Below are positions 6,468 to 36,699 of a DNA stretch of 64,000 nucleotides, one piece after another (position 1 is the first letter of the stretch; the number at the start of each line of letters is the position of its first letter). The position numbers and the translations under genes were made by a program. The stretch is taken from IMG/VR virus record IMGVR_UViG_3300043395_000996, positions 32,001-96,000 of that record; one strand, given 5' to 3'. The stretch comes from a virus. The notes under the pieces are model-generated. The model had not been told where the DNA came from. It saw only the letters and a program-made list of their open reading frames with translations, and made no database searches.

Positions 6468-8102
<1,635 letters not shown>

Positions 8103-20182: not shown

Positions 20183-20614
20183 TTATTTTTGTTTAGGAGT
20201 TATTTGAGTTTCATCCATCTCCAATGCTATTATTCTACCAAATCCACTTAATTTATAAGTTCTATAAGCATCGTTTTTTATAATAGGTACTGATGAAACT
20301 ACTTTTGAATAAAAATTCTTTGCTCCACCTTTTAATTCAATAGAGCCATCATCTTCATTTGTAAATTTTCCAAAAAATCTCTTAATCAATTGGGGATGTA
20401 TCGTTGAAACTTTTATAGCATGAACTATATCTTTTGCTCTCGATACAAACAATGTATAAATTATAGGAGAATTATTCATTGGATAATTTCCTTTAGTTCC
20501 ATCCACATATTCATATTCTCTTATCAAATAAAATCTACCCCTTTGCATTTTAGCCGGGGTAGATATTTTTGATTCATCTATAAATCTACGATATAGTGGA
20601 TTATAGTTACTCAT
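20183..20614 (-). CDS. Hypothetical protein, possibly a distant T4 gp2-like DNA end protector
   Basis: GRFY...PIIY...AYRTY layout is only loosely reminiscent of gp2. Confidence 0.35.
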   Translation of the reverse strand: MSNYNPLYRRFIDESKISTPAKMQRGRFYLIREYEYVDGTKGNYPMNNSPIIYTLFVSRAKDIVHAIKVSTIHPQLIKRFFGKFTNEDDGSIELKGGAKNFYSKVVSSVPIIKNDAYRTYKLSGFGRIIALEMDETQITPKQK

Positions 20615-23512: not shown

Positions 23513-24373
23513 TTATTTTCCATCACAATGTGTTCCAAAAAATTCACACCATTTGCATAAAGTGGATGGTTTCTTATAATACTCAATATCGGTTTTATAA
23601 TTTCCATTCTCATCAAATACTTCATTTACAAATGATAAAAACCCATTCCATGCTTTATTAACGGATGGTTTACCATTGGCAGGTATATGCTTACTAATGC
23701 GAGGAATTACAAAATCTGCGTTTTCGGAAACTTTTCTTTTTAAAATAATAAATTCTACCTCAATCATATCTTCCGATATGTTTAACATTTGTGCGTAGAA
23801 TTTTTTGTATAAAAGAATTTGTGCATTTTTAACCGGGTCGGATTTCTGATATTTACTCCAACCTTTAGTTGATGTTTTGAAATCTATAATACGATATCTA
23901 CCCGTTTTTTTATTTCTAACGATGAAGTCAATAAATCCTAAAAAGTTTACATTATCGGTAATCTTTGTATTGATTGGTTGTTCGATTGCAACCAACTCAT
24001 CATCTTTAAGAGAAAAGAAATTGTTAAAATTCTTTGGCTTTTGAAAGTAATCTAATATCGTATTACCATCTTCCAAAAATTCTACCATCTCTTCTTTTGT
24101 AGAAATATGTTTTTGATGTTGTTCGAATTCTTTTAGATAAATGTCCTTCATTTTGTTTTTCAACATATCTTTCAAATCCATTAGCTTATCAGCTTGTGAT
24201 TTTGAAATGCGAAGGCATTTATCTAAATATTCTTGTAAGGTTTCATGCATTGCAGTTCCGAAAACTGAATGTATGTTTGAAGATGATTCTCTTAAATCAT
24301 CTATATAAGATAGTTTATATTGTTGTGGGCAACTGCTCCACATACTATATTGTGAAAATGATACTCTAGCCAT
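23513..24373 (-). CDS. PD-(D/E)XK RecB/Cas4-like exonuclease
   Basis: CPQQY...FGTAMHE, GFIDFI, IIDFKTS, Q..LY, CKWCEF...C. Confidence 0.88.
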   Translation of the reverse strand: MARVSFSQYSMWSSCPQQYKLSYIDDLRESSSNIHSVFGTAMHETLQEYLDKCLRISKSQADKLMDLKDMLKNKMKDIYLKEFEQHQKHISTKEEMVEFLEDGNTILDYFQKPKNFNNFFSLKDDELVAIEQPINTKITDNVNFLGFIDFIVRNKKTGRYRIIDFKTSTKGWSKYQKSDPVKNAQILLYKKFYAQMLNISEDMIEVEFIILKRKVSENADFVIPRISKHIPANGKPSVNKAWNGFLSFVNEVFDENGNYKTDIEYYKKPSTLCKWCEFFGTHCDGK

Positions 24374-24377
24374 ATAA

Positions 24378-24409
24378 CAAATATACTCAATTTATTCGTA
24401 TTTTCCAAA
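24378..24409 (-). promoter_or_regulatory. Bacteroidota-type promoter, probably giving a leaderless mRNA
   Basis: TTTG-N20-TATATTTG, then 4 nt to the ATG. Confidence 0.75.
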
Positions 24410-25642
24410 TTATATCAATGGTTTTTTACGAGTATCTTCGTTAATAATATCATCTATAAATGATAGTTTTTCTGGTAAAATAGTATCGTTAAATATTAAT
24501 CCGTGAACAGTATGTGCTATTAAATATTTTCTAGCGTTTTCTTTATCCCAATTTGTAACTTTAGCATTTTTTAAGTAATTTATATACTTTTCCAATTGCT
24601 CTTTTAGTTTATCGGATTTAATTTTTTTAATATTTTTTTCATACAATGAAATTATATTATATCTGTGTTCATCAAAATTTACAGGATTATACCACCAAGG
24701 AAAATGTACAAAATGAAAATTAATTAATTCATGCGATTCTTTTAATTCTTTAATAAAATCAAAAAAATCATAAACATTTAATAATGAGCAAGTATATTGA
24801 AAATCGTATGTAATGTTTTTATATTGTGTAATAGCCCATTTTAATGCCATCATATTCTTTTTAAATATTTTGGTATCAAATCCGGTTCTAACATATTCAC
24901 CAAGCTCTCCCAACCCATCCAATGAAATAGAAAAATGTACTTTTCTGAAATCCTTCAGATATTCAAATATTGTTTTTCCTTTGTATTTTAAAATACTAAA
25001 GTTGGTATTATACATCAAAGTTACATTCTTTTTATTTTGAATGGATTCCAATAATTCAAAATGTTCTTCTAAAACAAATGGTTCACCTCCTGCAAAATAC
25101 AAAACTTCTATATTTTGCATAGCATCTTCATTTAATTTAAAATTAATTTTATTTAAAGATTCTATTTTTTCTTCTCCAAAAGCAAGAACTCCCATATTAT
25201 TTTTATAGAAATCTTCCTTCTCTTCTTGCCATTTTGTTGAATATGAATCATTACAACTTCTACATTTAAAATTACATATATTAGAAGGTCTTAAATCCAA
25301 TGAAACATAATCAGGCTTAACTTCTCCATCAAAATTTTGAAAATCTAAATTATCTTGTATTCTTTTAAGATGTTGCTTATGATGTTCGTTCCACTTTTGT
25401 CTTGATGATGTTACATTTTGGCTTTCTAAAGAATAACAGGCATTACAATATTCATTGTGAATACCTTTAATCATATCAACTCTTAATTTTTTGTATTCTT
25501 CCGAATTAAACGCTTCATCAATTGTAGTATTTTTTAGATTAATATCTGTAAATGGTTTTTGTGAATCGCAACATGCTTTGGCTGTTCCGTTCATATACCC
25601 ATTGAAGTGTATAAATGGTAATATACAAAATTTGTTATTCAT
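24410..25642 (-). CDS. Radical SAM protein with N-terminal twitch/SPASM domain
   Basis: CILPF...ACC...CNACY; CNFKCRSC (CxxxCxxC); FAGGEPF; YNTNFS. Confidence 0.88.
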   Translation of the reverse strand: MNNKFCILPFIHFNGYMNGTAKACCDSQKPFTDINLKNTTIDEAFNSEEYKKLRVDMIKGIHNEYCNACYSLESQNVTSSRQKWNEHHKQHLKRIQDNLDFQNFDGEVKPDYVSLDLRPSNICNFKCRSCNDSYSTKWQEEKEDFYKNNMGVLAFGEEKIESLNKINFKLNEDAMQNIEVLYFAGGEPFVLEEHFELLESIQNKKNVTLMYNTNFSILKYKGKTIFEYLKDFRKVHFSISLDGLGELGEYVRTGFDTKIFKKNMMALKWAITQYKNITYDFQYTCSLLNVYDFFDFIKELKESHELINFHFVHFPWWYNPVNFDEHRYNIISLYEKNIKKIKSDKLKEQLEKYINYLKNAKVTNWDKENARKYLIAHTVHGLIFNDTILPEKLSFIDDIINEDTRKKPLI

Positions 25643-26095
25643 TTATATTTTTAATTTTAACTTTGTAATTTGCTTTTTATCAGTACCATACTTTTCGCAG
25701 ATATATTTAATATTTTCTCTACCCTCTCTGGTAGCATAAAGTATTTCGATATATTCAATTGCTTGAGTTTCGGGTACTGAAAATTCTCTTTTGATTAATT
25801 CAACCAAAAATTCTTCATACTTCTCTTCGCCTTTCCCTTTAATGTATTTCAGATATTGCTTTCCCTTTGGGATTACGCTGATATACAACTTATACATTTC
25901 CTTTGGTTGTAGTGTTTGAGTCAAAGGAAGTAAAGTTGCAATCAGTTCTACCCATTCTGGCTTCATTGAAAGAAATCTATTAATCATAAAATTACTCCAC
26001 GATTTTAAATCCTCTTCCGAAAGTTTATCAAAATACTTTGGGTCTTGCTCCGAAGTTATTGCATTAAGATGGTCGAATAACTTTTTAGCTGCCAT
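25643..26095 (-). CDS. Clamp loader small subunit (T4 gp62-like)
   Basis: LFDHLNAI...WSNFMINRFLSM...IPKGKQYLKYIK; sits next to the gp44-like gene. Confidence 0.75.
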   Translation of the reverse strand: MAAKKLFDHLNAITSEQDPKYFDKLSEEDLKSWSNFMINRFLSMKPEWVELIATLLPLTQTLQPKEMYKLYISVIPKGKQYLKYIKGKGEEKYEEFLVELIKREFSVPETQAIEYIEILYATREGRENIKYICEKYGTDKKQITKLKLKI

Positions 26096-26325
26096 TATTT
26101 TACGATTTTAGATTCTTGTAATTCCGGTGGTAATAAGTCTTGCAATGGTTTACCACAATTTGTACAAAGGAAAATATCGATTGGTATTACAGTATCTTTA
26201 TCTCCACCCGTAACCAACCTCGATGCTTTTCTAACTCTCAATGCCGGCATAAAGATAACGTTGCCGCATTCACATGCTACATCTCTCGTATCTTTTAAAT
26301 CAATATAAGGTTGTTGATTCATCAT
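26095..26325 (-). CDS. Zn-ribbon hypothetical protein
   Basis: CECG...CTNCG. Confidence 0.65.
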   Translation of the reverse strand: MMNQQPYIDLKDTRDVACECGNVIFMPALRVRKASRLVTGGDKDTVIPIDIFLCTNCGKPLQDLLPPELQESKIVK

Positions 26326-27272
26326 TATTTAATAATGTTTAAAATTTGAATAATTGTACTCATAAATACGATTTCTTTATCTACTACCAATGCATCTTTT
26401 GATAATCCATCAGCGATAGTTAAAATTACATTAGCGGTATTACCACTAGCATAATCATCTACTTTATCGTATAACATCGAATACATTTCTGAATAATCAT
26501 TTAAGTGATTATCTGCAACCGACTGTCTGATAGTCATAAATAAATTACGTTTATCATCGGATGATTTTAATAAATCAATTAATTTAGTTTGGAAATTTGA
26601 TTCAACCATAACTTTATGGTCTACTTTCAATTCACCCTTAGCCGATTGTAATTGGCAAGTGTTTAAGATTCTACGAATATCAGGATAATATGAATTGATG
26701 ATATCAGCCATATTCTTTGGCTCGTATTTAATCTTTTCAGTATCCAAAATTTTAGCAACCTGTACAGCTACATCCTTTTTAGTTGGTGGCGTAATTGCGA
26801 ATGATTGACATCTACTCTGAATTGGGTCAATAATCTTCTCAATGTAGTTACAAGTCAAAATGAATCTACAATGTTTTGAAAAAGTTTCCATTAAGTTACG
26901 CAAGATTGCCTGTGCGTTTGGGGTCATATAATCAAACTCATCCAAAATAATTACTTTGAATCCTGCAAATCCTACTGATGATGCGAAGTTCTTTACTTTT
27001 GTTCTAACAGTATCCACATTGTTTTCATCCGATGCGTTAATAATCATACTATCGCATTTGATACTATTTACAATTAACTTTGCTAATGTGGTTTTACCTG
27101 TACCCGCTTTACCATAAAACAACAAATGTGGAATATCGTTTGTATCCAAATATTGTTGAATGGTTTCTTTTACTTGCTCATTACCTACATAATCGGCAAG
27201 TGTTTGTGGGCGGTATTTCTCCACCCACAAACTATGTTCTCTTTTATTAATATCGTTTGCGAAAAAACTCAT
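26325..27272 (-). CDS. Clamp loader AAA+ subunit (T4 gp44 / RFC-like)
   Basis: WVEKYRP, GKAGTGKT, NASDE, ILDEFD, SRC. Confidence 0.95.
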   Translation of the reverse strand: MSFFANDINKREHSLWVEKYRPQTLADYVGNEQVKETIQQYLDTNDIPHLLFYGKAGTGKTTLAKLIVNSIKCDSMIINASDENNVDTVRTKVKNFASSVGFAGFKVIILDEFDYMTPNAQAILRNLMETFSKHCRFILTCNYIEKIIDPIQSRCQSFAITPPTKKDVAVQVAKILDTEKIKYEPKNMADIINSYYPDIRRILNTCQLQSAKGELKVDHKVMVESNFQTKLIDLLKSSDDKRNLFMTIRQSVADNHLNDYSEMYSMLYDKVDDYASGNTANVILTIADGLSKDALVVDKEIVFMSTIIQILNIIK

Positions 27273-27280
27273 ATTTTATT

Positions 27281-27706
27281 TTATTTACCAGATGAACCAA
27301 ATCCGCCCTCACCTCTTTCCGAATCAGATAATTCATCAACTATCTTAACTTGTACTACCGGCGTTGGCACTATTACTATTTGACAAACTCTATCTCCTAC
27401 ATTATAAGCGATTGAATCCAATCCATTTAACTTATTAAAGGTTGCTTGAAGTTCTCCTCTATAACCTGAATCAATTACTCCTACTGAATTACTTAACATC
27501 AATTCAGTATTTCTAATGGATGAACGAGGAAATACCAATCCAACAAATCCTTCCGGTATCTCCATTGCAATACCTAATCCATATGTTATCTGAAATGTAG
27601 TATTTTCTTTAATATTTGTTGCTACTAAATCCATTCCAGCATCACCCTTTTTAGCATATTTGGGTTTAACCGAATCCGGATGTAATAATTTAATTTTTAG
27701 CTGCAT
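27281..27706 (-). CDS. dut: Trimeric dUTPase
   Basis: AGMDL, PRSS, GVIDSGYRGE, RGEGGFGSSG. Confidence 0.97.
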   Translation of the reverse strand: MQLKIKLLHPDSVKPKYAKKGDAGMDLVATNIKENTTFQITYGLGIAMEIPEGFVGLVFPRSSIRNTELMLSNSVGVIDSGYRGELQATFNKLNGLDSIAYNVGDRVCQIVIVPTPVVQVKIVDELSDSERGEGGFGSSGK

Positions 27707-28005: not shown

Positions 28006-28719
28006 TTAATTTTGGATTTCTACTAAATAATATTTACAAACGAATTCATCAATTTGGAACTCAACGTGTGCCAATCCATCAGATGATACTTTAAGTTTAG
28101 CTGCGGTTGCTTCTTTATTAGCCGTTAAGATTTCTTTTAAATACTTAGCGGAGAATGAAATTGGTTTAACCTCACCAGCGTAACCTTTTTCACAAGTGAA
28201 TGTTACTCTATTTGTAGAAATTGATGAATAACCAATTGCCATTTTTAAATCACCACCTTCAGTAAACACAGTGAAAGTATCGATATCAGATAATGCACCT
28301 TTTGCTTTGATAAACTTATCAATCATATTAGATGCCATTTCGATTGAAATACCAAATTCCGGCATTTGCTTCAAATCGGGTACCGCAGGAATTACGCCTA
28401 AATCAGCCAATTGATAAGAAGTTTCAGTTTCATCTGAAGATAATTTTAATACAGTTGCTTTTTCTCCTACTGTATCTACATTAAGATTGATATCACTATC
28501 CAAAATACCAATAAGGTTTTTCAATAATGATGTGGTATAAATACCAATGTTGAATGGTTTTGATGTAAAACCATTAAAATCCACTTCACCAAGCATAGTT
28601 TTATCATCAGAAATAAAACGAACTGAAAGTTTGTTTCCTTCAGCGTTCCAAGCTACTGATTCAATAACACCACCCAATGAATACTTTTGAATGAATCGAG
28701 TTAAATTGTTCTTGTTCAT
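28006..28719 (-). CDS. DNA sliding clamp (T4 gp45-like)
   Basis: 237 aa, beta-rich, C-terminal KYYLVE; next to the clamp loaders and PolB. Confidence 0.75.
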   Translation of the reverse strand: MNKNNLTRFIQKYSLGGVIESVAWNAEGNKLSVRFISDDKTMLGEVDFNGFTSKPFNIGIYTTSLLKNLIGILDSDINLNVDTVGEKATVLKLSSDETETSYQLADLGVIPAVPDLKQMPEFGISIEMASNMIDKFIKAKGALSDIDTFTVFTEGGDLKMAIGYSSISTNRVTFTCEKGYAGEVKPISFSAKYLKEILTANKEATAAKLKVSSDGLAHVEFQIDEFVCKYYLVEIQN

Positions 28720-28751: not shown

Positions 28752-28782
28752 CAAATATACGACTAATTTTTGAATATTCCAA
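28752..28782 (-). promoter_or_regulatory. Bacteroidota-type promoter upstream of the sliding clamp
   Basis: TTG-N20-TATATTTG. Confidence 0.7.
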
Positions 28783-29518
28783 GCTTTTTTATATGATTAT
28801 ATAATTTTTCTGCATAATTTTTATTTTCTTCCGATGTAGCATATTTCGTATCATCTTCAAAATATGGATAATCACCATCAAATCTATTATCATCTACATA
28901 ATCAGTTTGCAAAAATACTCCATTCCATGTAAAAGGTATTTCTTTTGATTTAAGATAATAAGTTATCAATAAATGATTTTTATACCAATTCATAAAATCA
29001 TCTTCTGAATTAGAAATATGTTTTATAGCATCAAACTCCCTTATACCATCTGGGTGTTCTTTGTAGTAACCCCACGGATTTGGTGCATATGGTTCAATAC
29101 CACCATCTGCTTTATAAAATTCTCTATGAGTTGGATATGTGTACATTATATTAACAAAGTTTGGATTAACTTTATCCACAAATGTTAATATCGTTCTTAC
29201 TATATAATCATTACTTCTACCACTATATCCAAAATTTAAATCAACTCCATTTGGTATCAGTTTTGAAAGATAGTATGGATATGTTTCATTATCATTTACT
29301 CCAATTCCTTCTGTATAAGAACTACCAACACTCATAATTTTGTATCCTTCTTTCAAAATAGAATTTCCTCTAAAGCCAATTTCATTATAAGTGTAATCAT
29401 TTTTATTTGTATGGTCGGAGCCAGAGCCTTGAAATCTTCTTCCAACTCTCTCTTTTAACTTCCATCTAAATGATGTAACATCAAATGAAATTGGTTTCCA
29501 AAATTTTAAACTATTCAT
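28763..29518 (-). CDS. SGNH-like protein, catalytic His apparently replaced
   Basis: SVGSSYTEG, NFGYSGRSN; block V reads DTKY rather than DxxH; start moved to MNSLKF. Confidence 0.6.
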   Translation of the reverse strand: MNSLKFWKPISFDVTSFRWKLKERVGRRFQGSGSDHTNKNDYTYNEIGFRGNSILKEGYKIMSVGSSYTEGIGVNDNETYPYYLSKLIPNGVDLNFGYSGRSNDYIVRTILTFVDKVNPNFVNIMYTYPTHREFYKADGGIEPYAPNPWGYYKEHPDGIREFDAIKHISNSEDDFMNWYKNHLLITYYLKSKEIPFTWNGVFLQTDYVDDNRFDGDYPYFEDDTKYATSEENKNYAEKLYNHIKKLGIFKN

Positions 29519-29963
29519 ATCTAATAAATCCGTTTTTTTCAAAAACATTATGAGCTGATGTGTGCCAGTCTTCGCAAATACATGTAATTTTTTTAAATGA
29601 TTTTGGTAATAATTTTATAGTATTATTTACAAACCATATTGGTGAGTATGATGGTCTTTCATAACAATTCGTAACATATAAATTATAAAGATAAAATTCA
29701 TCATTTTCTTTTGGCTCATAAAATACATATCCAATTGCTTTATGCCCATAATACAATATAAATAAATGATGTCCTTTACTTACTCTCATTTGTACATCAT
29801 CAAAATTAAACATACCATCCCAACTATATTCTTCGTTGAAGAAATAAATTAATTTTTTTACATCATCTGATAATAAATCCAATTTATGTCTATTTGAAAT
29901 GTGTATGACACTCAAATCTTCATTTTCATTATAATTCCATTTATTTAATTCAAATTTAATCAT
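29511..29963 (-). CDS. GNAT-fold acetyltransferase-like protein
   Basis: IGYVF...LYNLYV...HTSAHNVFEKNGF. Confidence 0.65.
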   Translation of the reverse strand: MIKFELNKWNYNENEDLSVIHISNRHKLDLLSDDVKKLIYFFNEEYSWDGMFNFDDVQMRVSKGHHLFILYYGHKAIGYVFYEPKENDEFYLYNLYVTNCYERPSYSPIWFVNNTIKLLPKSFKKITCICEDWHTSAHNVFEKNGFIRYE

Positions 29964-29964
29964 A

Positions 29965-32526
29965 TTAAAAACTAAAAAACTTTTTAGCGGTTTGAGCTTC
30001 AGCAGATGCTTTTTCCCATTTCAATGCGTTATAAAAATCATTAACTTTGTTTTCCAACTCTGCTTTATAAATCATATCTCTATCCACATATTGCTCTACG
30101 AAATCCATAATTTCTTGTGGGTCATTGTAATCTTTGAATGCGACGGTATCCAATCCTAACGGATTTGTTTTAAGATATACCCACTTCACTTTATCACCAT
30201 CTCTAATTGGTTCGTGCTTATATGGACAATTGAAAAACTTTAATAATCTATTATAAGATATACCAGCTTTAACGTGCGCCGGTGTTCCTTTTTCAAAATC
30301 AGCAATTGCTTGTCCTCCATCTTTTCTCCACGTTCCATTATCATATTTACTCAACTCCTTAATCGCTCCACCCTTTGCTATTTTATTTACTGGCAAAGTT
30401 ACCATTTCTTTTTTGAAGTTAAGTAAAGATTCATCCATAAATGCATTATCTTTACCCATTAGAATATCTTTCAACATTTTAGCCATAAAGTCCTGAAATG
30501 CTTTCGGAAACGATGAACGAACCACATCCAATCCTTTTACATCCAACTTATCACAAGGTACACCATTCTTTAAAATCATCCATTGTGCATATCGTTTCTT
30601 TGCTACCCAAAATCCCGCTTTACTGATGTACTCTTTCTTAATTTCAAATCTATGTTTTTCCTTTGGAATAAAAAAGAATCTTTCAGCCAACATATCATAG
30701 AATGAGTTTAAGAATGTTTGAGTTTCTTCGGCAATTGTGTTTACCTCTTCAGCCATTCTATTTTGGTCGAATGTTTTGTATTCGGGATAACGATGCTTCA
30801 CCAATGGTTCTGCCATCATATAAATGGAATCAGTATCGATGTACACATTATAATCTTCTTTAGTTCCGAGTTCTTTCCAATATTTGATGTTTGCCATTTC
30901 TGCTGTTTTCTTAATAACAGTTTGGCCCGTAATCGTAACTGCCTCTGCATTATCAATATCGTAAAACCGAAAGGCAGGAAGACCAAGCACACCATACATA
31001 GAGTTAAGAAGAATCTTCTGAACCAACTGCCTTTTCGCATAAAATTCATATTTTTCCGTATCACCCTCCGTACCATATTTCTTTTCTAATTTTCTAAATT
31101 CAACACGTTTTTGAAACCAATCATTTAAAATATCCGCAATAAGACCAGGTGAATCCTGTGAGTATAAAACTCCGTTAGCTGCTACTCCTAAATTACTATC
31201 TTTAATAACTTCTTTTAGTTCCTGTGTTGTATATTCATACTCATCACCATCCTTACCAATAACTTTATAGGTTGTATCCAATCCTTTAATATTAGCTTCC
31301 GCATCCCAATTTTGAATCTTACCAATTTTTGTTTCGGGACTGATGTTTAGAGTCATAATGATTGATGGATATAGAGATGTTAAGTCCAAATCATAAATCC
31401 AATCGTACTTACCAACAATAGGTTCTTTCACATAAGCTCCAATAAACTTCTCTTCGTTGTTATCACGGAGTGCCTGCATCCTTTCTTTTCTATCCTTTGG
31501 TTTATTAGTTGCTACTAATCCTTTCTTTTTCAGATATCCCAAACATGCCCCCTCTAACCATTTAGAGGAGAATATGTAATCTTCGTATGGAACAAATCCG
31601 GCATGGCAAACGGCTCTACATAATTCAATGAATTGTAATTTGTTATCCATTGCTACAACCAACTCCACGTCAACAATGTTATACTCAATAAACTTCTCTA
31701 AATCATTTACAAATAAATCATCTAAACTTCCTTCATACTCAACCTTACCTCTACCTAATTCTTTGGTAGCAATGTAATTCAATGTATAAGATGCTTCCAA
31801 TGTATATGTGTATGTTTTATATAGATTGATGTAATCTAACACACTCACTCCACCAAAACTGAACTTCTCTCTATATGGTGACCAGAATGCCTCACCAATG
31901 CGAGATAATCTTTTAGCATGTCCTTCCCCACATACGTTTTTAATACGATTGTAGAGATATGGAATATCAAAGAAATCGATGTTCCAACCTGTTAAGATTG
32001 TTGGGTCAATTTGCTGATAATAGTTTAAGAATGATAATAAAAGATTTCTTTCATTATCAAAAATGTGAACTTTTACCTCTCTACCATCTTTACTAAATTG
32101 CTTTGCATTATCTTTGACTTTACGTTCTTTATCTAATACAAACACTTCATATTCTTTTGTGATAGAATCGTGTGCAGCAATAGCTGTGATTTCGTTTTGT
32201 GCTTCCTTTGTATTTGGTAGACCAGATATCATTTCTACCTCAATATCAAATGTTAATACAGTATGACCTTTTGATGGTAAATCATTATCGTAAATGTCTA
32301 CCAATACTCTCGTTGTTTCTGGCACATCGGATTCAAATAAATCTTCAGCTTCATCTTTTTCCCACTTTGAAATACGGGTTAATTTATCACCATACATTGA
32401 ACGATGTTGTCCGTATGGGTCTTTTTTATAAGCGTATTTACGATATGGAAATGTTTGATAACCATTTGTATCATCCCATAAATGTATTAAATTCTTTGCT
32501 CTCTCGTAATAGATGTTTTGATACAT
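29965..32526 (-). CDS. polB: Family B DNA polymerase (T4 gp43-like)
   Basis: FDIE exonuclease I, DLTSLYPSI, KILLNSMYG, YIDTDS, KKRY. Confidence 0.97.
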   Translation of the reverse strand: MYQNIYYERAKNLIHLWDDTNGYQTFPYRKYAYKKDPYGQHRSMYGDKLTRISKWEKDEAEDLFESDVPETTRVLVDIYDNDLPSKGHTVLTFDIEVEMISGLPNTKEAQNEITAIAAHDSITKEYEVFVLDKERKVKDNAKQFSKDGREVKVHIFDNERNLLLSFLNYYQQIDPTILTGWNIDFFDIPYLYNRIKNVCGEGHAKRLSRIGEAFWSPYREKFSFGGVSVLDYINLYKTYTYTLEASYTLNYIATKELGRGKVEYEGSLDDLFVNDLEKFIEYNIVDVELVVAMDNKLQFIELCRAVCHAGFVPYEDYIFSSKWLEGACLGYLKKKGLVATNKPKDRKERMQALRDNNEEKFIGAYVKEPIVGKYDWIYDLDLTSLYPSIIMTLNISPETKIGKIQNWDAEANIKGLDTTYKVIGKDGDEYEYTTQELKEVIKDSNLGVAANGVLYSQDSPGLIADILNDWFQKRVEFRKLEKKYGTEGDTEKYEFYAKRQLVQKILLNSMYGVLGLPAFRFYDIDNAEAVTITGQTVIKKTAEMANIKYWKELGTKEDYNVYIDTDSIYMMAEPLVKHRYPEYKTFDQNRMAEEVNTIAEETQTFLNSFYDMLAERFFFIPKEKHRFEIKKEYISKAGFWVAKKRYAQWMILKNGVPCDKLDVKGLDVVRSSFPKAFQDFMAKMLKDILMGKDNAFMDESLLNFKKEMVTLPVNKIAKGGAIKELSKYDNGTWRKDGGQAIADFEKGTPAHVKAGISYNRLLKFFNCPYKHEPIRDGDKVKWVYLKTNPLGLDTVAFKDYNDPQEIMDFVEQYVDRDMIYKAELENKVNDFYNALKWEKASAEAQTAKKFFSF

Positions 32527-33638
32527 TAATATCTTAATTTTTCGTTTAAAACTTTAATCATTTTACTATCATTTAATGATAGTTCCTTTGCTCTTTCAAT
32601 TGCTTTGTTTGATATATCTAAACGATGGGTTTCGTTATCTAATATTCTATCAAGCATATCAAACAAATCCTTTTTATATTTAAAGAATAATCCATTTGGG
32701 TCTATCTCTTTATAACAATCTGATTCCTGAAATATCATCGGTGTTCCATTCATCATACAATCCGTTGCTGCCACACTCCATCCATAATTGGTTTGCCTCA
32801 TCTGAACTCCAACCATACATTCTTGTAATCTTTTGTAATAGTCGTGTTTGGCAACTTTTGTATTATCAATCCAACTAAATTCTGGCTTACCATCCAATTG
32901 TGGCACCCATACTTTAAAATCTTGCCTACGTTCCCTATACTCTTCCATCAATTTAATAAATGATGGATATCCTTTATAAGCGGCTGCTCTATGATTGAAT
33001 ACAATAACTTTTTCCTTTGATTGAGGCGATTCGATTATTTTGGAATTATCTACTCCTAAATTCCATACTACTAATATACTATTTAATTTTTGAATAAACA
33101 AATCATTAAACCACAATTTTGCTTCTTCCAAAACTCTATCTTTTTGTTCTTGTGTATTTAAAAAGCAAGTTTCCATTTGAGATACACCTAAAAGTTCTAT
33201 CGGCATCCATCTCCATTTGTTTTTTCTATCTTCGGCATTACAAGTTTTCATTTCCCACCAATGACAATATCCTATAATTTTGGTATTAAAATCATTTTTA
33301 TATCTACCAACTTGTGGCCAATCCGGCAAATGTGAATATATTACATCATAATCAATAGTTTCCAATAACCTATTCATATCAGGCGGATATGTTCTCATTT
33401 TAATCATATCACCTGAAAATGGTAGTATATGTTGTTTTACATTAATAAGATTCAATTTCTTAACCGCTTGTGGTAAAATGATATTCCAATAAAAATCACC
33501 ATGCGATTCCAATGCTTTTATATGGTTGTAAATAACATCAACAAATGAATCTTTTTCAATATTAGAAGAATTGGTAATATTTGGTATTACCAATACTTTG
33601 CGAGAATTACTATAATCTATACTATCCCAAAAATTCAT
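32526..33638 (-). CDS. GT-B glycosyltransferase, candidate DNA glycosyltransferase
   Basis: FNHRAAAYKGY; WSVAATDCMMNGTP; TAATG overlap with the polB start. Confidence 0.7.
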   Translation of the reverse strand: MNFWDSIDYSNSRKVLVIPNITNSSNIEKDSFVDVIYNHIKALESHGDFYWNIILPQAVKKLNLINVKQHILPFSGDMIKMRTYPPDMNRLLETIDYDVIYSHLPDWPQVGRYKNDFNTKIIGYCHWWEMKTCNAEDRKNKWRWMPIELLGVSQMETCFLNTQEQKDRVLEEAKLWFNDLFIQKLNSILVVWNLGVDNSKIIESPQSKEKVIVFNHRAAAYKGYPSFIKLMEEYRERRQDFKVWVPQLDGKPEFSWIDNTKVAKHDYYKRLQECMVGVQMRQTNYGWSVAATDCMMNGTPMIFQESDCYKEIDPNGLFFKYKKDLFDMLDRILDNETHRLDISNKAIERAKELSLNDSKMIKVLNEKLRY

Positions 33639-33639
33639 A

Positions 33640-34866
33640 TTATCTTCCTACTTCTTTTAAATAATGTTCTTTCATTTGTTCCCAAGTCATTCCAATTGCA
33701 TCTATATAAAATAGAACCTCTGGTTTGATTTTACCTTCATCAAACAATTTTTCATATCGTTTGATTGCTTTATTTTTCCACCATTTAATAGTGTATTCGT
33801 TTCCTTCTTTGAATTTATCTTTCAACACTAAATCCTTCTCTTCAATTTTTGAACAAAGGAATTCATTACCATTTTCATACATTTGTGCAAAATATACACC
33901 TCTTTGGAATCCGTGGTCATATTCATTTCCTTTAATTCCTAATTCTTTGAATATTGCCTGAATAATCTTTTGTTTGATTCCACTTACAGGTCCATTCTTT
34001 TCGTAACCCATATTAGCACCATTTCTTTCTCTCTCATCCATAATGTTTTTCTTATACCATTCTGAACGATTTTCTTTTAACCATTGATGCCACGGGTCAT
34101 AAACTTTATCATCGGGTTTTGTTGAAATCTTACCTTTGGATTCACCCAATGTTTTGAAATGTGGAATACCATTATATTGTGAATGGATACCATACAAAGA
34201 TGTTGTTCCCACTCCAACCAATGGATTGTTGTATTTCTTTTGCCAATAATCTCTAACTTCGGGTGAAGTTGCTAATGCTGCGATTAACTTACCACCTAAA
34301 AAATTATATCCAAATGGTTGTGTTGATACAATGGTAGTTGCAATTGTAGTGCAATTTAATTTACCCTTTTCAAACTTATCTTCTTTACTCCAACCAATAT
34401 ACTCATCTCTAACACCCAATGAAGTAATATCAGAACCCAAACAAATTTGCCCTAATATTTTTCCGCTTGTTCTATCCTTTACATAACATTTTACATTACG
34501 ACCTGGATTAGCCTGAAACTCCATTGTGTGAATCAATCTACGAATTTCAGTCCATCGAGTTGATTCTTTTGGGTCATCTTCTACAATTTCTACATAGGGA
34601 TTGATTGATTCGATTTCCTTAATAGTTAGCTCTTTATTTGTAATATCAGTCGGCTTCCATAACGAATCATAGTGTTGTTGAAGAACCGGCAATCGTTTCA
34701 TATTAGAAACCAAATCATCGTTCCACTCCATCCATTTTTTGTAGAGAGTTTGCTCTTCTACTGACATAGTTTTAAGATAGTCCATATTTTCAATGAACTT
34801 CTTTTTCATAACCTCATAATCAAATGTGGCCGTGTTTGTTTCTTCTCCGGTATCCCAAAATTTCAT
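33640..34866 (-). CDS. DUF4338 (DruA-like) protein
   Basis: PGRN...LGQICLGSD...RDEYIGW...QPFGYNFLGGKLIA...TTSLYG. Confidence 0.75.
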   Translation of the reverse strand: MKFWDTGEETNTATFDYEVMKKKFIENMDYLKTMSVEEQTLYKKWMEWNDDLVSNMKRLPVLQQHYDSLWKPTDITNKELTIKEIESINPYVEIVEDDPKESTRWTEIRRLIHTMEFQANPGRNVKCYVKDRTSGKILGQICLGSDITSLGVRDEYIGWSKEDKFEKGKLNCTTIATTIVSTQPFGYNFLGGKLIAALATSPEVRDYWQKKYNNPLVGVGTTSLYGIHSQYNGIPHFKTLGESKGKISTKPDDKVYDPWHQWLKENRSEWYKKNIMDERERNGANMGYEKNGPVSGIKQKIIQAIFKELGIKGNEYDHGFQRGVYFAQMYENGNEFLCSKIEEKDLVLKDKFKEGNEYTIKWWKNKAIKRYEKLFDEGKIKPEVLFYIDAIGMTWEQMKEHYLKEVGR

Positions 34867-34891
34867 ATTCAGATTTTATTATTGTGTTTTA

Positions 34892-34923
34892 CAAATATAC
34901 GAAAAATAATTGATATTACCAAA
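34892..34923 (-). promoter_or_regulatory. Bacteroidota-type promoter for DUF4338-GT-polB
   Basis: TTTG-N20-TATATTTG; the -33 box overlaps the last codons of the upstream Mom gene. Confidence 0.75.
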
Positions 34924-35719
34924 ATTTGGTATCTATTTCCGTTTCTGGTGCAATTGTTTCCCAATGCTGAATATCCTTATTATATGCACGAGCATCTTTA
35001 GGATAAGGTCTAATCTCATGTTTCAATGATTTAAGAATTGTTTTTCTTTCTTTCTTATCTTCAGCTATAATTTGTAAGTATCTATGCTTTGGTGGTTCTT
35101 CTCTTCTCCAAAATTCTTTGTAACCTTGCTTACCAATTTCTCTACGAAGATGCTCCAAATTACCACTACCCCATTTTGTAAACACAGTCCTACTATGAAT
35201 CCATTTGTATGGGTTATTTGATAATGAAATGCCATAGTTTGGCATTAGGGCGATATCGGTATTTAGCCCCTGATAAATCCAATTAGTTGCTTGGTAAATA
35301 CCACCCAAATGTTCTTGCCCATTATCGGCGTAAGAAATAAGTGCTTTAATTGCTTTATCATTTTCTCTGAACCATTTGAATGATTGTCCCATAGCAAAAG
35401 ATTCAATGTTAGAACCATAACCATCATCACAATAAAGACGTGTTAATTCCAATACATTATCTTTTGTAAGTAATTCCGAAATAGAAGTTGCTGCTCTAGC
35501 TCCAACGGGAAACCCGTAAACCAAACATCCAATCAATTTGGTATCTTCGCCCAACGCATTGGTTTCATCCATTTTATAGAATATTCCTAATGCGTATCTA
35601 CACGCAGTCCAAGCGTGAGTATAGTGTTTCTTTACGATAATATCTTTTGCTACATCTTTACCAATTGGTGCTATAAATACTTTTGATGTATCACAATATT
35701 GTTTGCCTTCTACTTTCAT
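34916..35719 (-). CDS. mom: Mom-family adenine-modification enzyme, paralogue 1
   Basis: KKHY, VLELTRL, ISYAD...HLGGIYQATNWIYQG, KHRY. Confidence 0.85.
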   Translation of the reverse strand: MKVEGKQYCDTSKVFIAPIGKDVAKDIIVKKHYTHAWTACRYALGIFYKMDETNALGEDTKLIGCLVYGFPVGARAATSISELLTKDNVLELTRLYCDDGYGSNIESFAMGQSFKWFRENDKAIKALISYADNGQEHLGGIYQATNWIYQGLNTDIALMPNYGISLSNNPYKWIHSRTVFTKWGSGNLEHLRREIGKQGYKEFWRREEPPKHRYLQIIAEDKKERKTILKSLKHEIRPYPKDARAYNKDIQHWETIAPETEIDTKFW

Positions 35720-35723
35720 AACC

Positions 35724-36479
35724 TTAATTTATTGGTTCTAATTTATGTATTTCTTCAATGAATTCCTCATTTGCTTTTGGATATGGCAAAGATGGATATT
35801 TTAGATTTTTTAATAATTGTTTTCTTTCTTTTCCATTAACCAAAATGTAAACGTAACGATGTTTTCTCGGTTCTTTTTTAATCCAAAATGGCGATGTAAC
35901 CATTGTCTGAATTATCTTCGGGTCATTCGTTCCGTATTTCACATATGAAGTTCTGCTATGATGCCACTCATCAATCTCACTCCACTTAAAACTCCAACTA
36001 TCATTTGGTCGGATTCGGTTACCCTGATAAATCCAATTGGTTGCTTGATATATAGTTCCTAAATGACCAGCCTTTGGGTCTGAATATGATACCAATGCTT
36101 TTATATGTGGTGCGTTTTCTCTTAACCATTGAAATGTTTTTCCAACAAACCAACTTTCAATATTACTACCATATCCATCAAACACAAATAAACGGGTTAG
36201 TTCTAACACTTCCGTTCTATCCAATGTTTCACATATAGATGCGCCGGAATGCCTACCAACCGGGTCACCATAACACGCTACACCAATAAGTTTTTCATTT
36301 ACTCCTCCAAAGAATTTGTGTTCATCGTTTGAAACATAAAATAAACCAATAGCATAGGATACTTTTGTCCATATACCACTATAATGGTTATTTACAATAA
36401 TATCCTTTGCTACGTTTTTATTTACCGACCTTACAACTAATTTTGATGTATCACAATATAACTTATTGAGTTCTTTCAT
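35724..36479 (-). CDS. mom: Mom-family adenine-modification enzyme, paralogue 2
   Basis: NNHY, VLELTRL, VSYSD...HLGTIYQATNWIYQG, KHRY. Confidence 0.85.
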   Translation of the reverse strand: MKELNKLYCDTSKLVVRSVNKNVAKDIIVNNHYSGIWTKVSYAIGLFYVSNDEHKFFGGVNEKLIGVACYGDPVGRHSGASICETLDRTEVLELTRLFVFDGYGSNIESWFVGKTFQWLRENAPHIKALVSYSDPKAGHLGTIYQATNWIYQGNRIRPNDSWSFKWSEIDEWHHSRTSYVKYGTNDPKIIQTMVTSPFWIKKEPRKHRYVYILVNGKERKQLLKNLKYPSLPYPKANEEFIEEIHKLEPIN

Positions 36480-36663
36480 AAGGCCACTTTATCATGTGTG
36501 TCCACGTTTGGTTTGTAACTATTTTTTTAATGTTAGCAGGAGATACCTTATAGTTTCTAGCAATAACATTGATATTTCTATGCCCTATACGATATAGTTC
36601 TCTAATTTCGGAAACCTGTTTTTCCGTTAATTTGTGCATTGGATGCGCTTCTCCTTTTAACAT
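36463..36663 (-). CDS. Stand-alone HTH protein resembling the C-terminal domain of HNH homing endonucleases
   Basis: GEAHPMHKLTEKQVSEIR...IARNYKVSPANIKKIV..TW; start moved to MLKGE, downstream of the promoter. Confidence 0.7.
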   Translation of the reverse strand: MLKGEAHPMHKLTEKQVSEIRELYRIGHRNINVIARNYKVSPANIKKIVTNQTWTHMIKWPYERTQ

Positions 36664-36667
36664 ACGT

Positions 36668-36699
36668 CTAATATAACACTTTTTTTTGAGAATCACAAA
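36668..36699 (-). promoter_or_regulatory. Variant Bacteroidota-type promoter for HTH-mom-mom
   Basis: TTTG-N20-TATATTAG (one mismatch to consensus), then 4 nt to the ATG. Confidence 0.55.

What the first reader, a model, noticed from the sequence alone, without database searches (positions are those of the whole stretch)
29511..36699. Candidate replication-coupled DNA hypermodification system: Mom, Mom, DUF4338 and a glycosyltransferase joined to PolB
Seen: two full-length Mom-family genes, a DUF4338 gene and a GT-B glycosyltransferase lie directly upstream of polB. The GT stop overlaps the polB start (TAATG), DUF4338 and GT are 1 nt apart, and one promoter (34892..34923) with no visible terminator would drive DUF4338-GT-polB-GNAT. 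Known: phage Mu Mom is a GNAT-fold enzyme that makes N6-methylcarbamoyladenine and blocks restriction; T-even GT-B enzymes glucosylate DNA bases; DUF4338 is known as DruA of the Druantia defence system. Inference: these enzymes build a multi-step base modification, such as an acylated or glycosylated purine, on newly made phage DNA, and DUF4338 acts here as a modifier rather than in defence. I know of no characterisation of this combination.
Basis: partly seen in the sequence, partly recalled or inferred. Interest (0 to 1): 0.88.

Follow-up and report, generated by a model that had tools for sequence, protein, structure and literature searches.

The report
Phage replisome DNA-marking gene island
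An uncultured freshwater T4-like phage keeps two Mom-type adenine-modifying enzymes, a DruA-family acyltransferase-fold protein and a sugar transferase right in front of its DNA polymerase gene; they most likely decorate the phage's own DNA against host nucleases, but as separable modules rather than the single multi-step pathway first proposed.

Summary
The genes are real and lie as described. On the minus strand they run HTH, Mom1, Mom2, DUF4338/DruA, a GT-B glycosyltransferase and PolB. The TAATG overlap and the 1-nt gap are confirmed.

Three points need correction:
- The promoter is an ordinary 9/12 match.
- The downstream "GNAT" lies in a 1181-bp strain-variable insertion.
- Mom is now known to act alone, using Gly-tRNA(Gly) on duplex DNA.

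Both Moms keep seven of nine key Mu residues. The DUF4338 model is a GNAT fold whose best PDB match is Mu Mom, but it has no sequence-profile link to Mom. The glycosyltransferase is GT4-like, and its fold does not reveal its acceptor.

In 151 related IMG/VR loci the genes are separable:
- DUF4338 stays with clamp, clamp-loader or PolB genes, also in cyanophages and Pelagibacter phages that lack Mom.
- The glycosyltransferase sits before PolB in 67% of unique copies and beside DUF4338 in 41%.
- The glycosyltransferase is sometimes replaced by a variant about 30% identical.

Mom2, DUF4338 and the glycosyltransferase carry conserved terminal F-W peptides resembling the PolB tail, which suggests clamp docking.

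Verdict: a replisome-embedded DNA-marking island of at least two modules; a single joined pathway is not shown. Earlier follow-ups in this scan reached similar conclusions on other genomes.

The parts
36463..36696 (-). Small HTH protein (77 aa) that overlaps the Mom1 start by 17 nt. It may be a regulator or DNA-binding helper, or the remnant of a homing-endonuclease DNA-binding domain.
   Evidence: Pfam HTH_7 at 8e-4, below cut-off. PHROG HTH and endonuclease C-terminal regions. PADLOC homing endonuclease at 7.5e-4. It is kept upstream of the Moms in most relatives, and also in L063, which has no Mom.
35724..36479 (-). Mom1, a Mom-family enzyme predicted to be a tRNA-dependent transferase acting on adenine N6 in DNA.
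   Evidence: PF25680 at 3e-44 over model positions 2-202/202. phrog_1384 at 1.3e-53. It keeps Mu residues H58, Y59, R111, S124, D149, Y159 and W181; R151 is replaced by K.
34916..35719 (-). Mom2, a paralogue 45% identical to Mom1, with a conserved C-terminal [K/N]-F-W peptide.
   Evidence: PF25680 at 3.9e-42. 45% identity to Mom1. It keeps the same catalytic residues; R151 is replaced by G. The C-terminal FW is kept in essentially all Mom2 orthologues while the flanking residues vary.
34867..34915 (-). 49-nt spacer holding the proposed promoter (TTGGTA-17-TATATT, 34922-34894).
   Evidence: 9/12 consensus match. The scan found no more such matches than in shuffled sequence. TATATT is conserved in 21 unique relatives. 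The -35 hexamer coincides with Mom2's Phe-Trp-stop codons.
33640..34866 (-). DruA/DUF4338-family protein with a GNAT-fold core (about residues 83-340), extra N- and C-terminal helices, and a disordered N-terminal M-K-F-W-D peptide.
   Evidence: PF14236 at 1.1e-21. PADLOC DruA at 1.2e-21. AlphaFold2 model with pLDDT 92.6. The best PDB match is Mu Mom 8bv8_B (Z 9.7, rmsd 3.9, 167 aa aligned), followed by generic GNATs at Z about 8. The N-terminal FW is conserved in nearly all of the ~80 unique orthologues recovered.
32526..33638 (-). GT-B glycosyltransferase resembling the retaining GT4 family, with an N-terminal M-x-F-W-[D/E] peptide. Its stop codon overlaps the PolB start.
   Evidence: Model pLDDT 85.8. 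VIA Z 26.9-25 to sucrose-phosphate synthase, MshA, PglA and BshA. Foldseek also lists the phage HY126 DNA glycosyltransferase 9iqz at rank 19. TAATG overlap confirmed.
29965..32526 (-). Family-B replicative DNA polymerase (gp43 type) with a conserved C-terminal [K/Q]-F-F-x-F tail.
   Evidence: Pfam DNA_pol_B and exo1. phrog_262 at 1.9e-183. C-terminal motif present in 66 unique orthologues.
28783..29963 (-). Strain-variable 1181-bp insertion carrying the weak GNAT ORF (29511-29963) and most of the 261-aa ORF (28763-29548).
   Evidence: Contigs of two runs join 28782 directly to 29964. No tblastn hit for the GNAT in 153 loci. Pfam Acetyltransf_1 only at E 0.0056.
28006..28719 (-). Probable sliding clamp (gp45 type), the inferred docking platform.
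   Evidence: Weak PCNA_C hit at 0.0045. Collinear 22% identity to the annotated clamp of Pelagibacter phage Mosig. It follows PolB in nearly all relatives.
25643..27706 (-). dUTPase (27281-27706), clamp-loader large subunit (26325-27272, N-terminal M-S-F-F), a 76-aa ORF, and clamp-loader small subunit (25643-26095).
   Evidence: Pfam dUTPase at 1e-20 and Phage_clamp_A at 9e-10. phrog_168 at 7e-85.

Best explanation
This is a DNA-marking (anti-restriction) island inside the replisome gene cluster of a freshwater T4-like phage. It is built from at least two separable modules.

**Module 1: HTH, Mom1 and Mom2**
- By analogy with Mu Mom, each Mom by itself takes an amino acid from a charged host tRNA and puts it on N6 of adenine in duplex phage DNA after replication. 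In Mu the amino acid is glycine.
- The adduct then rearranges on the base.
- The two paralogues probably cover different sequence contexts or donors.

**Module 2: the DruA-family GNAT and the GT4-like glycosyltransferase**
- The GNAT is an old companion of PolB, clamp and clamp-loader genes across aquatic T4-like phages.
- The glycosyltransferase is its frequent but exchangeable neighbour.
- They most likely write a second, still unknown mark. This could be an acyl or aminoacyl group, in some lineages extended by a sugar.
- The target would be newly made DNA or a DNA-bound replisome component.

**Clamp docking**
- Mom2, the GNAT and the glycosyltransferase carry terminal Phe-Trp peptides like the polymerase's C-terminal Phe-Phe-x-Phe tail.
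- They are probably recruited to the sliding clamp.

**Shown and inferred**
- Shown: gene content, folds, residue conservation, synteny patterns and motif conservation.
- Inferred: every chemical activity, DNA as the target of module 2, and clamp docking.
For: - Full-length Mom matches, with conservation of H58, Y59, R111, S124, D149, Y159 and W181 in Mom1, Mom2 and 98 unique orthologues. These residues are required in Mu Mom (PMC13219725, PMC7261163).
- Mu Mom alone modifies dsDNA post-replicatively using Gly-tRNA(Gly) (PMC13219725).
- The DUF4338 model has pLDDT 92.6, and its top PDB match is Mu Mom at Z 9.7.
- DUF4338 homologues are fused to ParB_N in 6 of 20 long forms examined, and to UDG in 1. 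A published DndF fusion calls the domain a GNAT (PMC10853773).
- DUF4338 lies between gp44 and gp62 in three cyanophages. It overlaps the PolB stop by 4 nt in Pelagibacter phage HTVC008M. It follows the clamp gene in 38 of 88 unique copies of this clade.
- The glycosyltransferase is adjacent to DUF4338 in 31 of 76 unique copies, in two different genomic slots. Glycosyltransferases only 56% or about 30% identical to it also lie beside DUF4338 in some relatives.
- In one relative the same slot holds an N6/N4 DNA methyltransferase.
- Terminal F-[F/W] peptides are conserved in Mom2, DUF4338, the glycosyltransferase, PolB and gp44. Five of the 11 such termini among 209 ORFs of the genome fall in this roughly 10-kb cluster.
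- No other DNA methylase family tested is present in the genome.
Against: - No chemistry was measured; the phage is uncultured.
- DUF4338 has no sequence-profile similarity to Mom (hhalign probability 0.6%). Its Z for Mom is only about 1 above generic GNATs, so DNA as its substrate is not established.
- The glycosyltransferase groups structurally with GT4 enzymes that act on small molecules, lipids and teichoic acids. The genome encodes many other glycosyltransferases.
- No hydroxymethyl- or hydroxy-pyrimidine route was found. The one ThyA homologue looks canonical.
- Mu's essential R151 is K in Mom1 and G in Mom2, and the dimer residue W48 is not kept. The donor or product may therefore differ from Mu, or activity may be altered.
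- The terminal F-W motif is absent from cyanophage and Pelagibacter-phage DUF4338 proteins. Its role in clamp binding is untested.
Confidence: 0.5

Rival explanations
1. One reading: Mom1, Mom2, DUF4338 and the glycosyltransferase act in sequence on the same base to build one compound hypermodification, for example an aminoacylated adenine that is then acylated and/or glycosylated. Expression would be coupled to PolB.
For: - All four genes are contiguous and co-oriented here and in about 12-14 unique related sequences.
- The junctions are tight.
- All carry or neighbour terminal F-W peptides.
- One genome that lacks Mom in this slot also lacks the glycosyltransferase (L063/G004; one record, 53% complete).
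Against: - Mom is sufficient alone (PMC13219725).
- DUF4338 is conserved without Mom or the glycosyltransferase in cyanophages and Pelagibacter phages.
- Moms lie about 10 kb from the DUF4338-glycosyltransferase pair in complete relatives.
- Relatives exist with Mom-Mom-DUF4338-PolB and no glycosyltransferase, and others with a single Mom.
- N6-carbamoylmethyl-adenine offers no hydroxyl for an O-glycosyltransferase.
Confidence: 0.15
2. Only the Moms mark DNA. The DruA-type GNAT and/or the glycosyltransferase modify something else: a replisome or host protein (acetylation, glycosylation), a nucleotide pool component, or a small molecule. They lie here simply because the slot is an accessory-gene hotspot expressed early.
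For: - Most GNATs and GT4 enzymes act on proteins, small molecules or glycolipids. The closest glycosyltransferase structures are of that kind.
- The slot is highly variable and in relatives holds unrelated ORFs.
- The phage encodes a large separate cluster of glycosyltransferase and sugar genes.
Against: - DUF4338's top structural match is the DNA-modifying Mom.
- Recurrent ParB_N and UDG fusions point to nucleic acid.
- Linkage to polymerase and clamp-loader genes holds across distant phage groups.
- A GT4-like glycosyltransferase that glycosylates DNA is known, from phage HY126 (PDB 9iqz; PMC13326640).
Confidence: 0.25
3. The DruA homologue works in defence or superinfection exclusion, as in Druantia, rather than as a modifier of the phage's own DNA.
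For: Family membership: PF14236 and PADLOC DruA. An AIPR-like lead for a neighbouring ORF in relatives (score 0.88, a lead only).
Against: - No DruE-type MZB domain anywhere in the 180-kb genome.
- The gene is core-like and tied to the replisome in lytic T4-like phages.
- DruA's own role in Druantia is unknown.
Confidence: 0.05

Closest known systems
Bacteriophage Mu Mom (Pfam PF25680; PDB 8bv8; Silva et al. 2026, PMC13219725; Karambelkar et al. 2020, PMC7261163)
   Same: - Mom1 and Mom2 are full-length family members.
- They share the GNAT core, the inserted helical element, and residues H58, Y59, R111, S124, D149, Y159 and W181.
- They are expected to act post-replicatively on adenine N6 in duplex DNA using a charged tRNA.
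   Different: - Two, and in some relatives one or three, tandem paralogues sit in a lytic T4-like phage.
- They lie in the replication module rather than in a late Com-controlled operon.
- R151 is K or G, and W48 is not kept.
- Mom2 has a conserved C-terminal F-W tail.
- A small HTH gene stands where Mu has com.
- Donor, sequence motif and product are unknown.
DruA (DUF4338, PF14236) of type I Druantia
   Same: Clear sequence-family membership over nearly the whole PADLOC model. The domain was already called a GNAT by Aravind and co-workers (PMC10853773). DruA-like proteins in Synechococcus phages were noted by the Phold authors (bioRxiv 10.1101/2025.08.05.668817).
   Different: There are no DruB-E partners. 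The gene is phage-encoded and linked to the replisome. In this clade it has an N-terminal F-W peptide and is often paired with a glycosyltransferase. No function is known for DruA in any context.
Phage DNA glycosyltransferases: T4 alpha-/beta-glucosyltransferases, and the GT-B arabinosyltransferase of phage HY126 and RB69-type phages (PDB 9iqz; PMC13326640)
   Same: GT-B fold. An early or replication-module gene in a T4-like phage. Lineage-to-lineage replacement by distant variants, reminiscent of the sugar diversity of T-even phages.
   Different: No specific similarity beyond the general GT-B/GT4 fold (12% identity; rank 19 in Foldseek). No hydroxymethyl- or hydroxy-cytosine pathway was detected in the genome. 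The acceptor is unknown.
GT4 retaining glycosyltransferases (MshA, BshA, PglA, PimA, sucrose-phosphate synthase)
   Same: Best structural matches: Z 25-27 over about 330 residues.
   Different: Pfam GT1/GT4 scores are below the cut-offs. The family is found only in phages (637 homologues). It sits in the replisome context and carries a terminal F-W peptide.

Membership tests
Mom family (PF25680) | Full-length match to the family model above the curated cut-off | tested here: met
   Mom1 scores 151.6 bits and Mom2 144.6 bits against a cut-off of 27.1. Model positions 2-202 and 3-202 of 202 are matched.
Mom family (PF25680) | Active-site residues H58, Y59, R111, S124, D149, Y159 and W181 of Mu Mom | tested here: met
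   Invariant in the Mu/Mom1/Mom2 alignment. Kept in 41 Mom1-like and 59 Mom2-like sequences, apart from a few gapped or substituted positions (H58/Y59 gaps, D149N, W181Y/F).
Mom family (PF25680) | R151 (essential in Mu) and W48 (dimer contact) | tested here: not met
   Position 151 is K or N in Mom1-like and G in Mom2-like proteins. Position 48 is N, D or S. The alignment has no gaps between D149 and Y159.
Mom family (PF25680) | Gly-tRNA(Gly)-dependent formation of N6-carbamoylmethyl-deoxyadenosine in dsDNA | not testable with these tools
   Needs expression and nucleoside LC-MS. The phage genome encodes 14 tRNAs but no tRNA-Gly, so host tRNA would be used.
DruA / DUF4338 (PF14236) | Sequence match to the family models | tested here: met
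   Pfam 77.7 bits against a cut-off of 27. PADLOC DruA at 1.2e-21, residues 86-366 on model positions 88-366 of 407.
DruA / DUF4338 (PF14236) | GNAT-type fold | tested here: met
   Model pLDDT 92.6. Mu Mom at Z 9.7, and more than 40 GNATs at Z 7.3-8.7 over residues 83-354. Foldseek hits are all acetyltransferases.
Type I Druantia defence system | DruA encoded together with DruB-E, including the large DruE helicase with its MZB/DUF1998 domain | tested here: not met
   No MZB (PF09369) match in the 179,990-bp genome. The neighbours are replication genes.
GT-B glycosyltransferases, GT4-like | Two-Rossmann-domain GT-B fold close to GT4 enzymes | tested here: met
   VIA Z 26.9 to 6kih, 26.6 to MshA and 25.9 to PglA, with about 330 residues aligned.
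GT-B glycosyltransferases, GT4-like | Pfam GT1/GT4 family score above the gathering cut-off | tested here: not met
   Best scores are 21.2, 20.5 and 20.6 bits against cut-offs of 25-28.5.
Phage DNA glycosyltransferases (T4 AGT/BGT; HY126-type) | Specific structural or sequence relationship to a proven DNA glycosyltransferase | tested here: inconclusive
   HY126 glycosyltransferase 9iqz is at Foldseek rank 19 (E 4.6e-10, 12% identity), no closer than other GT4 enzymes. A model named 'DNA alpha-glucosyltransferase' is at rank 45 in BFVD.
Phage DNA glycosyltransferases (T4 AGT/BGT; HY126-type) | A pathway that supplies a hydroxylated pyrimidine acceptor (a gp42-type hydroxymethylase or a 5-hydroxycytosine synthase) | tested here: inconclusive
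   The genome has one ThyA homologue (311 bits to PF00303). It has the uracil-specifying Asn in the P-F-N-I-A-S motif and a ThyA-like C-terminus. It is therefore not a dCMP enzyme by that residue, but a dUMP hydroxymethylase cannot be excluded.

The most novel reading that the evidence does not exclude
DruA-family GNATs are DNA writers like Mom. In the very abundant aquatic T4-like phages (this freshwater clade, pelagimyophages, cyanomyophages) they ride with the replisome and place an undescribed acyl or aminoacyl mark on nascent DNA. Exchangeable glycosyltransferases extend that mark with different sugars in some lineages. In this clade all writers, Mom2 included, are tethered to the sliding clamp by terminal Phe-Trp peptides. 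It would follow that type I Druantia also works through a DruA-made DNA mark.
Probability: 0.2. Interest if true: 0.85.

Novelty: new variant of a known kind. Interest (0 to 1): 0.6.

Why it matters
- Mom-type adenine hypermodification has been worked out only for temperate phage Mu. Here it appears duplicated and wired into the replication module of abundant, uncultured freshwater T4-like phages.
- It sits next to a DruA-family enzyme whose function is unknown in any setting, the Druantia defence system included.
- If the DruA-type GNAT and its exchangeable glycosyltransferase write on DNA, this would be a new family of DNA modifications that does not start from hydroxymethyl-pyrimidines.
- It would also offer a direct handle on what DruA does.
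- The shared terminal Phe-Trp peptides offer a simple, testable route by which base-modifying enzymes could be coupled to the replication fork.
- Such modifications also affect how well these phages are sequenced, cloned and restricted.

Tried and rejected
- **DUF4338 against Mom, profile-profile:** comparing the DUF4338 alignment A2 with the Mom alignment A4 gave no relationship (probability 0.6%). BLASTP also found nothing. The link is at fold level only.
- **phmmer against PDB sequences:** nothing meaningful for DUF4338, and nothing at all for the glycosyltransferase.
- **Promoter scans:**
  - The sigma-70 scan was not enriched over shuffled sequence.
  - The T4 late motif TATAAATA was not enriched, and none lies on the coding strand between 29.5 and 37 kb.
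  - Expression timing remains inferred from position only.
- **Metatranscriptome and metagenome contigs:**
  - RNA-library contigs of related strains cover PolB, the glycosyltransferase, DUF4338 and the Moms.
  - No contig bridges a junction by 31 nt or more on both sides.
  - Contigs cannot show starts, strand or level, so the operon structure was not tested.
- **Long reads:** no raw or long-read runs were available, so base-modification signals could not be examined.
- **BGT-like partners of DruA, reported by earlier notes of this scan:**
  - PF09198 found no match in five isolate phage genomes that carry DUF4338.
  - The control genomes gave no match either, so this answer is uninformative.
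- **Contexts of the ParB_N- and UDG-fused DUF4338 forms:** the only contigs were 3-4 kb long.
- **Protein Atlas on two accessory ORFs of relatives:**
  - The 425-aa ORF matched only viral hypothetical proteins.
  - The 584-aa ORF gave an AIPR/DUF262 lead at 0.88, below the trust level.
- **F-W peptides as recombination microhomology:** I considered whether they reflect nucleotide microhomology for cassette shuffling rather than a peptide motif. Only TTTTGG is fixed while the flanks vary, so a peptide-level constraint seems more likely. This was not resolved.

Full report
**What the window is.** The window is part of a 179,990-bp virus record estimated 95% complete.
- It has about 30% G+C, and almost all genes are on the minus strand.
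- The neighbourhood is a T4-type replication module. It holds ribonucleotide reductase, a DnaB-type helicase, UvsX, PhoH, thioredoxin, PolB, dUTPase and both clamp-loader subunits.
- The nearest cultured relatives, by the DUF4338 protein, are Pelagibacter phages Mosig and HTVC008M and the cyanomyophages, classified as Kyanoviridae where family-level taxonomy was returned.
- Near-identical DNA is held by freshwater, reservoir and estuary metagenomes from 10 studies.

**Check of the observation.** The ORFs are as stated.
- Both Mom ORFs match PF25680 over the whole model. The 408-aa ORF matches DruA/DUF4338. PolB is unambiguous.
- The glycosyltransferase falls below the Pfam cut-offs, but its model is a confident GT-B fold (pLDDT 85.8; Z 25-27 to GT4 enzymes).
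- The glycosyltransferase stop and PolB start share TAATG. One nucleotide separates DUF4338 from the glycosyltransferase.
- No terminator-like site lies on the coding strand between DUF4338 and the end of the 150-aa ORF.

Two details are weaker.
- The promoter:
  - It is a 9/12 consensus match, in a region where such matches are as common as in shuffled DNA (68 against 68.3).
  - Its two hexamers are conserved in 21 unique relatives.
  - The -35 hexamer is simply the Phe-Trp-stop codons of Mom2.
  - In most relatives TATATT lies only about 7 nt from the start codon.
- The terminal 'GNAT':
  - Its Pfam hit is weak (E 0.0056).
  - It has no homologue in 153 related loci.
  - It lies inside an 1181-bp stretch (28783-29963) that contigs of related strains skip precisely.
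  - It is therefore a strain-specific insert, not part of a conserved operon.

**The Moms.** Mu Mom alone transfers glycine from Gly-tRNA(Gly) to N6 of adenine in duplex DNA after replication. The adduct then rearranges to N6-carbamoylmethyl-dA (PMC13219725).
- Residues H58, Y59, R111, S124, D149, R151, Y159, W181 and W48 matter in Mu (earlier numbering in PMC7261163).
- Mom1 and Mom2 are 45% identical. Together with 98 unique orthologues they keep H58, Y59, R111, S124, D149, Y159 and W181.
- R151 is K or N in Mom1-like and G in Mom2-like proteins, and W48 is not kept.
- They therefore look active, but they may differ from Mu in donor, rearrangement or quaternary structure.
- Some relatives have a single Mom (the Mom2 type) and some have three. 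The pair is therefore not an obligate heterodimer.
- The genome has 14 tRNAs but no tRNA-Gly.

**The DUF4338 protein.** It is a sequence member of the DruA family.
- A model built on 49 diverse homologues is very confident (pLDDT 92.6, pTM 0.90).
- Aligned against 48,161 PDB representatives, its best match is the Mu Mom crystal structure 8bv8_B (Z 9.7, rmsd 3.9 Å, 167 residues). Dozens of GNATs follow at Z 7.3-8.7. Foldseek's weak hits are all acetyltransferases.
- A conserved Q-P-x-G...G-G-K segment sits at the strand-4/helix-3 junction of the model, where GNATs bind the cofactor phosphate (my reading).
- There is no profile-level similarity to Mom, so this is a separate GNAT family.
- This is not new in itself:
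  - DUF4338 was called a GNAT in PMC10853773.
  - DruA-like proteins in Synechococcus phages were noted in the Phold preprint.
  - The S-SCSM2R paper annotated its homologue as 'mom' on structural grounds.
- Among 20 longer homologues examined, six carry an N-terminal ParB_N domain and one a UDG domain. This points towards nucleic acid.
- No DruE-type domain is present in the genome.

**The glycosyltransferase.** Its 637 homologues come from phage-like contigs.
- Structurally it sits with retaining GT4 enzymes: sucrose-phosphate synthase, MshA, PglA and BshA.
- The DNA arabinosyltransferase of phage HY126 (9iqz), which decorates 5-hydroxycytosine in DNA (PMC13326640), appears at Foldseek rank 19, no closer than other GT4 enzymes.
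- The fold therefore cannot tell the acceptor.
- The genome's single ThyA homologue has the uracil-specifying Asn and a ThyA-type C-terminus. I see no source of hydroxylated cytosine.

**Comparative genomics.** I fetched 151 related IMG/VR loci and mapped 15 window proteins onto them. The arrangements vary, as this table shows.

| Type | Gene order |
|---|---|
| Window type | Mom-Mom-DUF4338-GT-PolB |
| Variant | Mom-Mom-(425-aa ORF)-GT-PolB-clamp-DUF4338-clamp loader |
| Variant | PolB-clamp-DUF4338-GT-clamp loader; two long records have the Mom pair about 10 kb away |
| Variant | Mom-Mom-(about 590-aa ORF)-alternative GT (about 30% identical)-DUF4338-PolB |
| Variant | Mom-Mom-DUF4338-PolB, with no GT |
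| Variant | HTH-DUF4338-PolB, with neither Mom nor GT (L063) |

(GT = glycosyltransferase.)

- Among 88 unique DUF4338 copies, 38 follow the clamp gene, 28 follow a Mom, and 33 touch a glycosyltransferase.
- Among 76 unique glycosyltransferase copies, 51 directly precede PolB and 31 touch DUF4338.
- In one relative an N6/N4 DNA methyltransferase sits between Mom2 and DUF4338.
- Outside the clade:
  - DUF4338 lies between gp44 and gp62 in cyanophages S-SSM7, S-PRM1 and S-SCSM2R.
  - It overlaps the PolB stop by 4 nt in HTVC008M, which has a second copy elsewhere.
  - None of these has a Mom or a glycosyltransferase beside it.
- The most stable association is therefore DUF4338 with replisome genes.
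- Next come the glycosyltransferase with PolB, and the glycosyltransferase with DUF4338. The latter pairing occurs in two slots, and in some relatives the adjacent glycosyltransferase is only 56% or about 30% identical, which argues for a functional pairing.
- The Moms form a separate cassette that shares the neighbourhood.

**Terminal peptides.** I followed a lead from another first-stage note (e1-5833886).
- Mom2 orthologues end in [K/N]-F-W, with variable residues before it.
- Nearly all recovered DUF4338 orthologues (~80 unique) begin M-x-F-W-[D/E], and so do nearly all 72 unique glycosyltransferase orthologues.
- All 66 unique PolB orthologues end [K/Q]-F-F-x-F. Most clamp-loader large subunits begin M-[S/A]-F-F.
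- In the whole genome only 11 of 209 ORFs have F-[F/W] at a terminus, about what dipeptide frequency predicts. Five of them are these neighbouring proteins.
- The DUF4338 N-terminus is disordered in the model.
- From my own knowledge, T4 and RB69 polymerases bind the gp45 clamp through an aromatic C-terminal tail. The simplest reading is a shared clamp-docking peptide, which would place the three enzymes on DNA at the fork.
- The motif is absent from cyanophage and Pelagibacter-phage DUF4338. Binding was not tested.

**Conclusion.** The finding is a real, conserved and uncharacterised gene neighbourhood. It is best read as a replisome-embedded DNA-marking island of at least two modules: the Mom cassette, and the DruA-type GNAT with an exchangeable glycosyltransferase.
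- A single multi-step pathway is possible but not favoured; I put it at about 0.15.
- The chemistry, the target of the GNAT and glycosyltransferase, and clamp docking are all inferences.
- Several earlier follow-ups in this scan reached similar verdicts on other genomes. My synteny, fold and residue tests were run independently on this window and its relatives.
- Their report of DruA paired with BGT-like transferases could not be reproduced in five isolate genomes (uninformative control).

Noticed in passing
window 28783-29963: An 1181-bp strain-variable insertion between PolB and the clamp gene. It carries a weak GNAT ORF with a typical '...N-V-F-E-K-N-G-F' C-terminal motif, and most of a 261-aa ORF of unknown function. 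Related strains join 28782 directly to 29964.
   Followed up: partly
window 34894-34922 and relatives: TATATT is conserved in the otherwise variable Mom2-DUF4338 spacer of 21 unique relatives. It usually lies only about 7 nt from the ATG. This could be a promoter giving a near-leaderless mRNA, or another signal.
   Followed up: partly
window 20614-23261: Two further GT-B glycosyltransferases. One of them matches Pfam 'GT4-conflict' (PF20706, 4e-8), a family described from conflict systems.
   Followed up: no
window 23513-25642: A radical-SAM/SPASM protein (410 aa) and a PD-(D/E)XK nuclease (286 aa) lie directly downstream of the clamp-loader genes.
   Followed up: no
window 6468-8093: A phage-encoded GroEL-type chaperonin (phrog_5725, 1.5e-180).
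   Followed up: no
own genome G000:C1:512-6173 (outside the window): ARAGORN finds 14 tRNA genes (none for glycine) and a tmRNA-like gene with tag peptide AVELSTMTFEDAMAFVGADYAVAA.
   Followed up: no
own genome G000:C1:29618-30742 (outside the window): A thymidylate synthase homologue of 374 aa with insertions. The catalytic Cys motif, the uracil-specifying Asn and a ThyA-like C-terminus are all present.
   Followed up: partly
L033:3484-4395: In a relative, an N6/N4 DNA methyltransferase (PF01555, 3.9e-23) occupies the slot between Mom2 and DUF4338.
   Followed up: partly
L006:5123-6877; L122:6724-8001: Relatives carry ORFs of about 590 aa and 425 aa with no Pfam match beside the glycosyltransferase. 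The language-model search gives only an AIPR/DUF262 lead (0.88) for the first, and viral hypothetical proteins for the second.
   Followed up: partly
L180:4536-5660 (Pelagibacter phage HTVC008M, KC465899.1 99535-100659): A second DUF4338 paralogue in this cultured phage overlaps the stop of the DNA polymerase gene by 4 nt. It is annotated only as 'putative cytoplasmic protein'.
   Followed up: yes
L151:3270-5506: One relative has three tandem Mom genes. The middle one is only 40% identical to Mom1.
   Followed up: no
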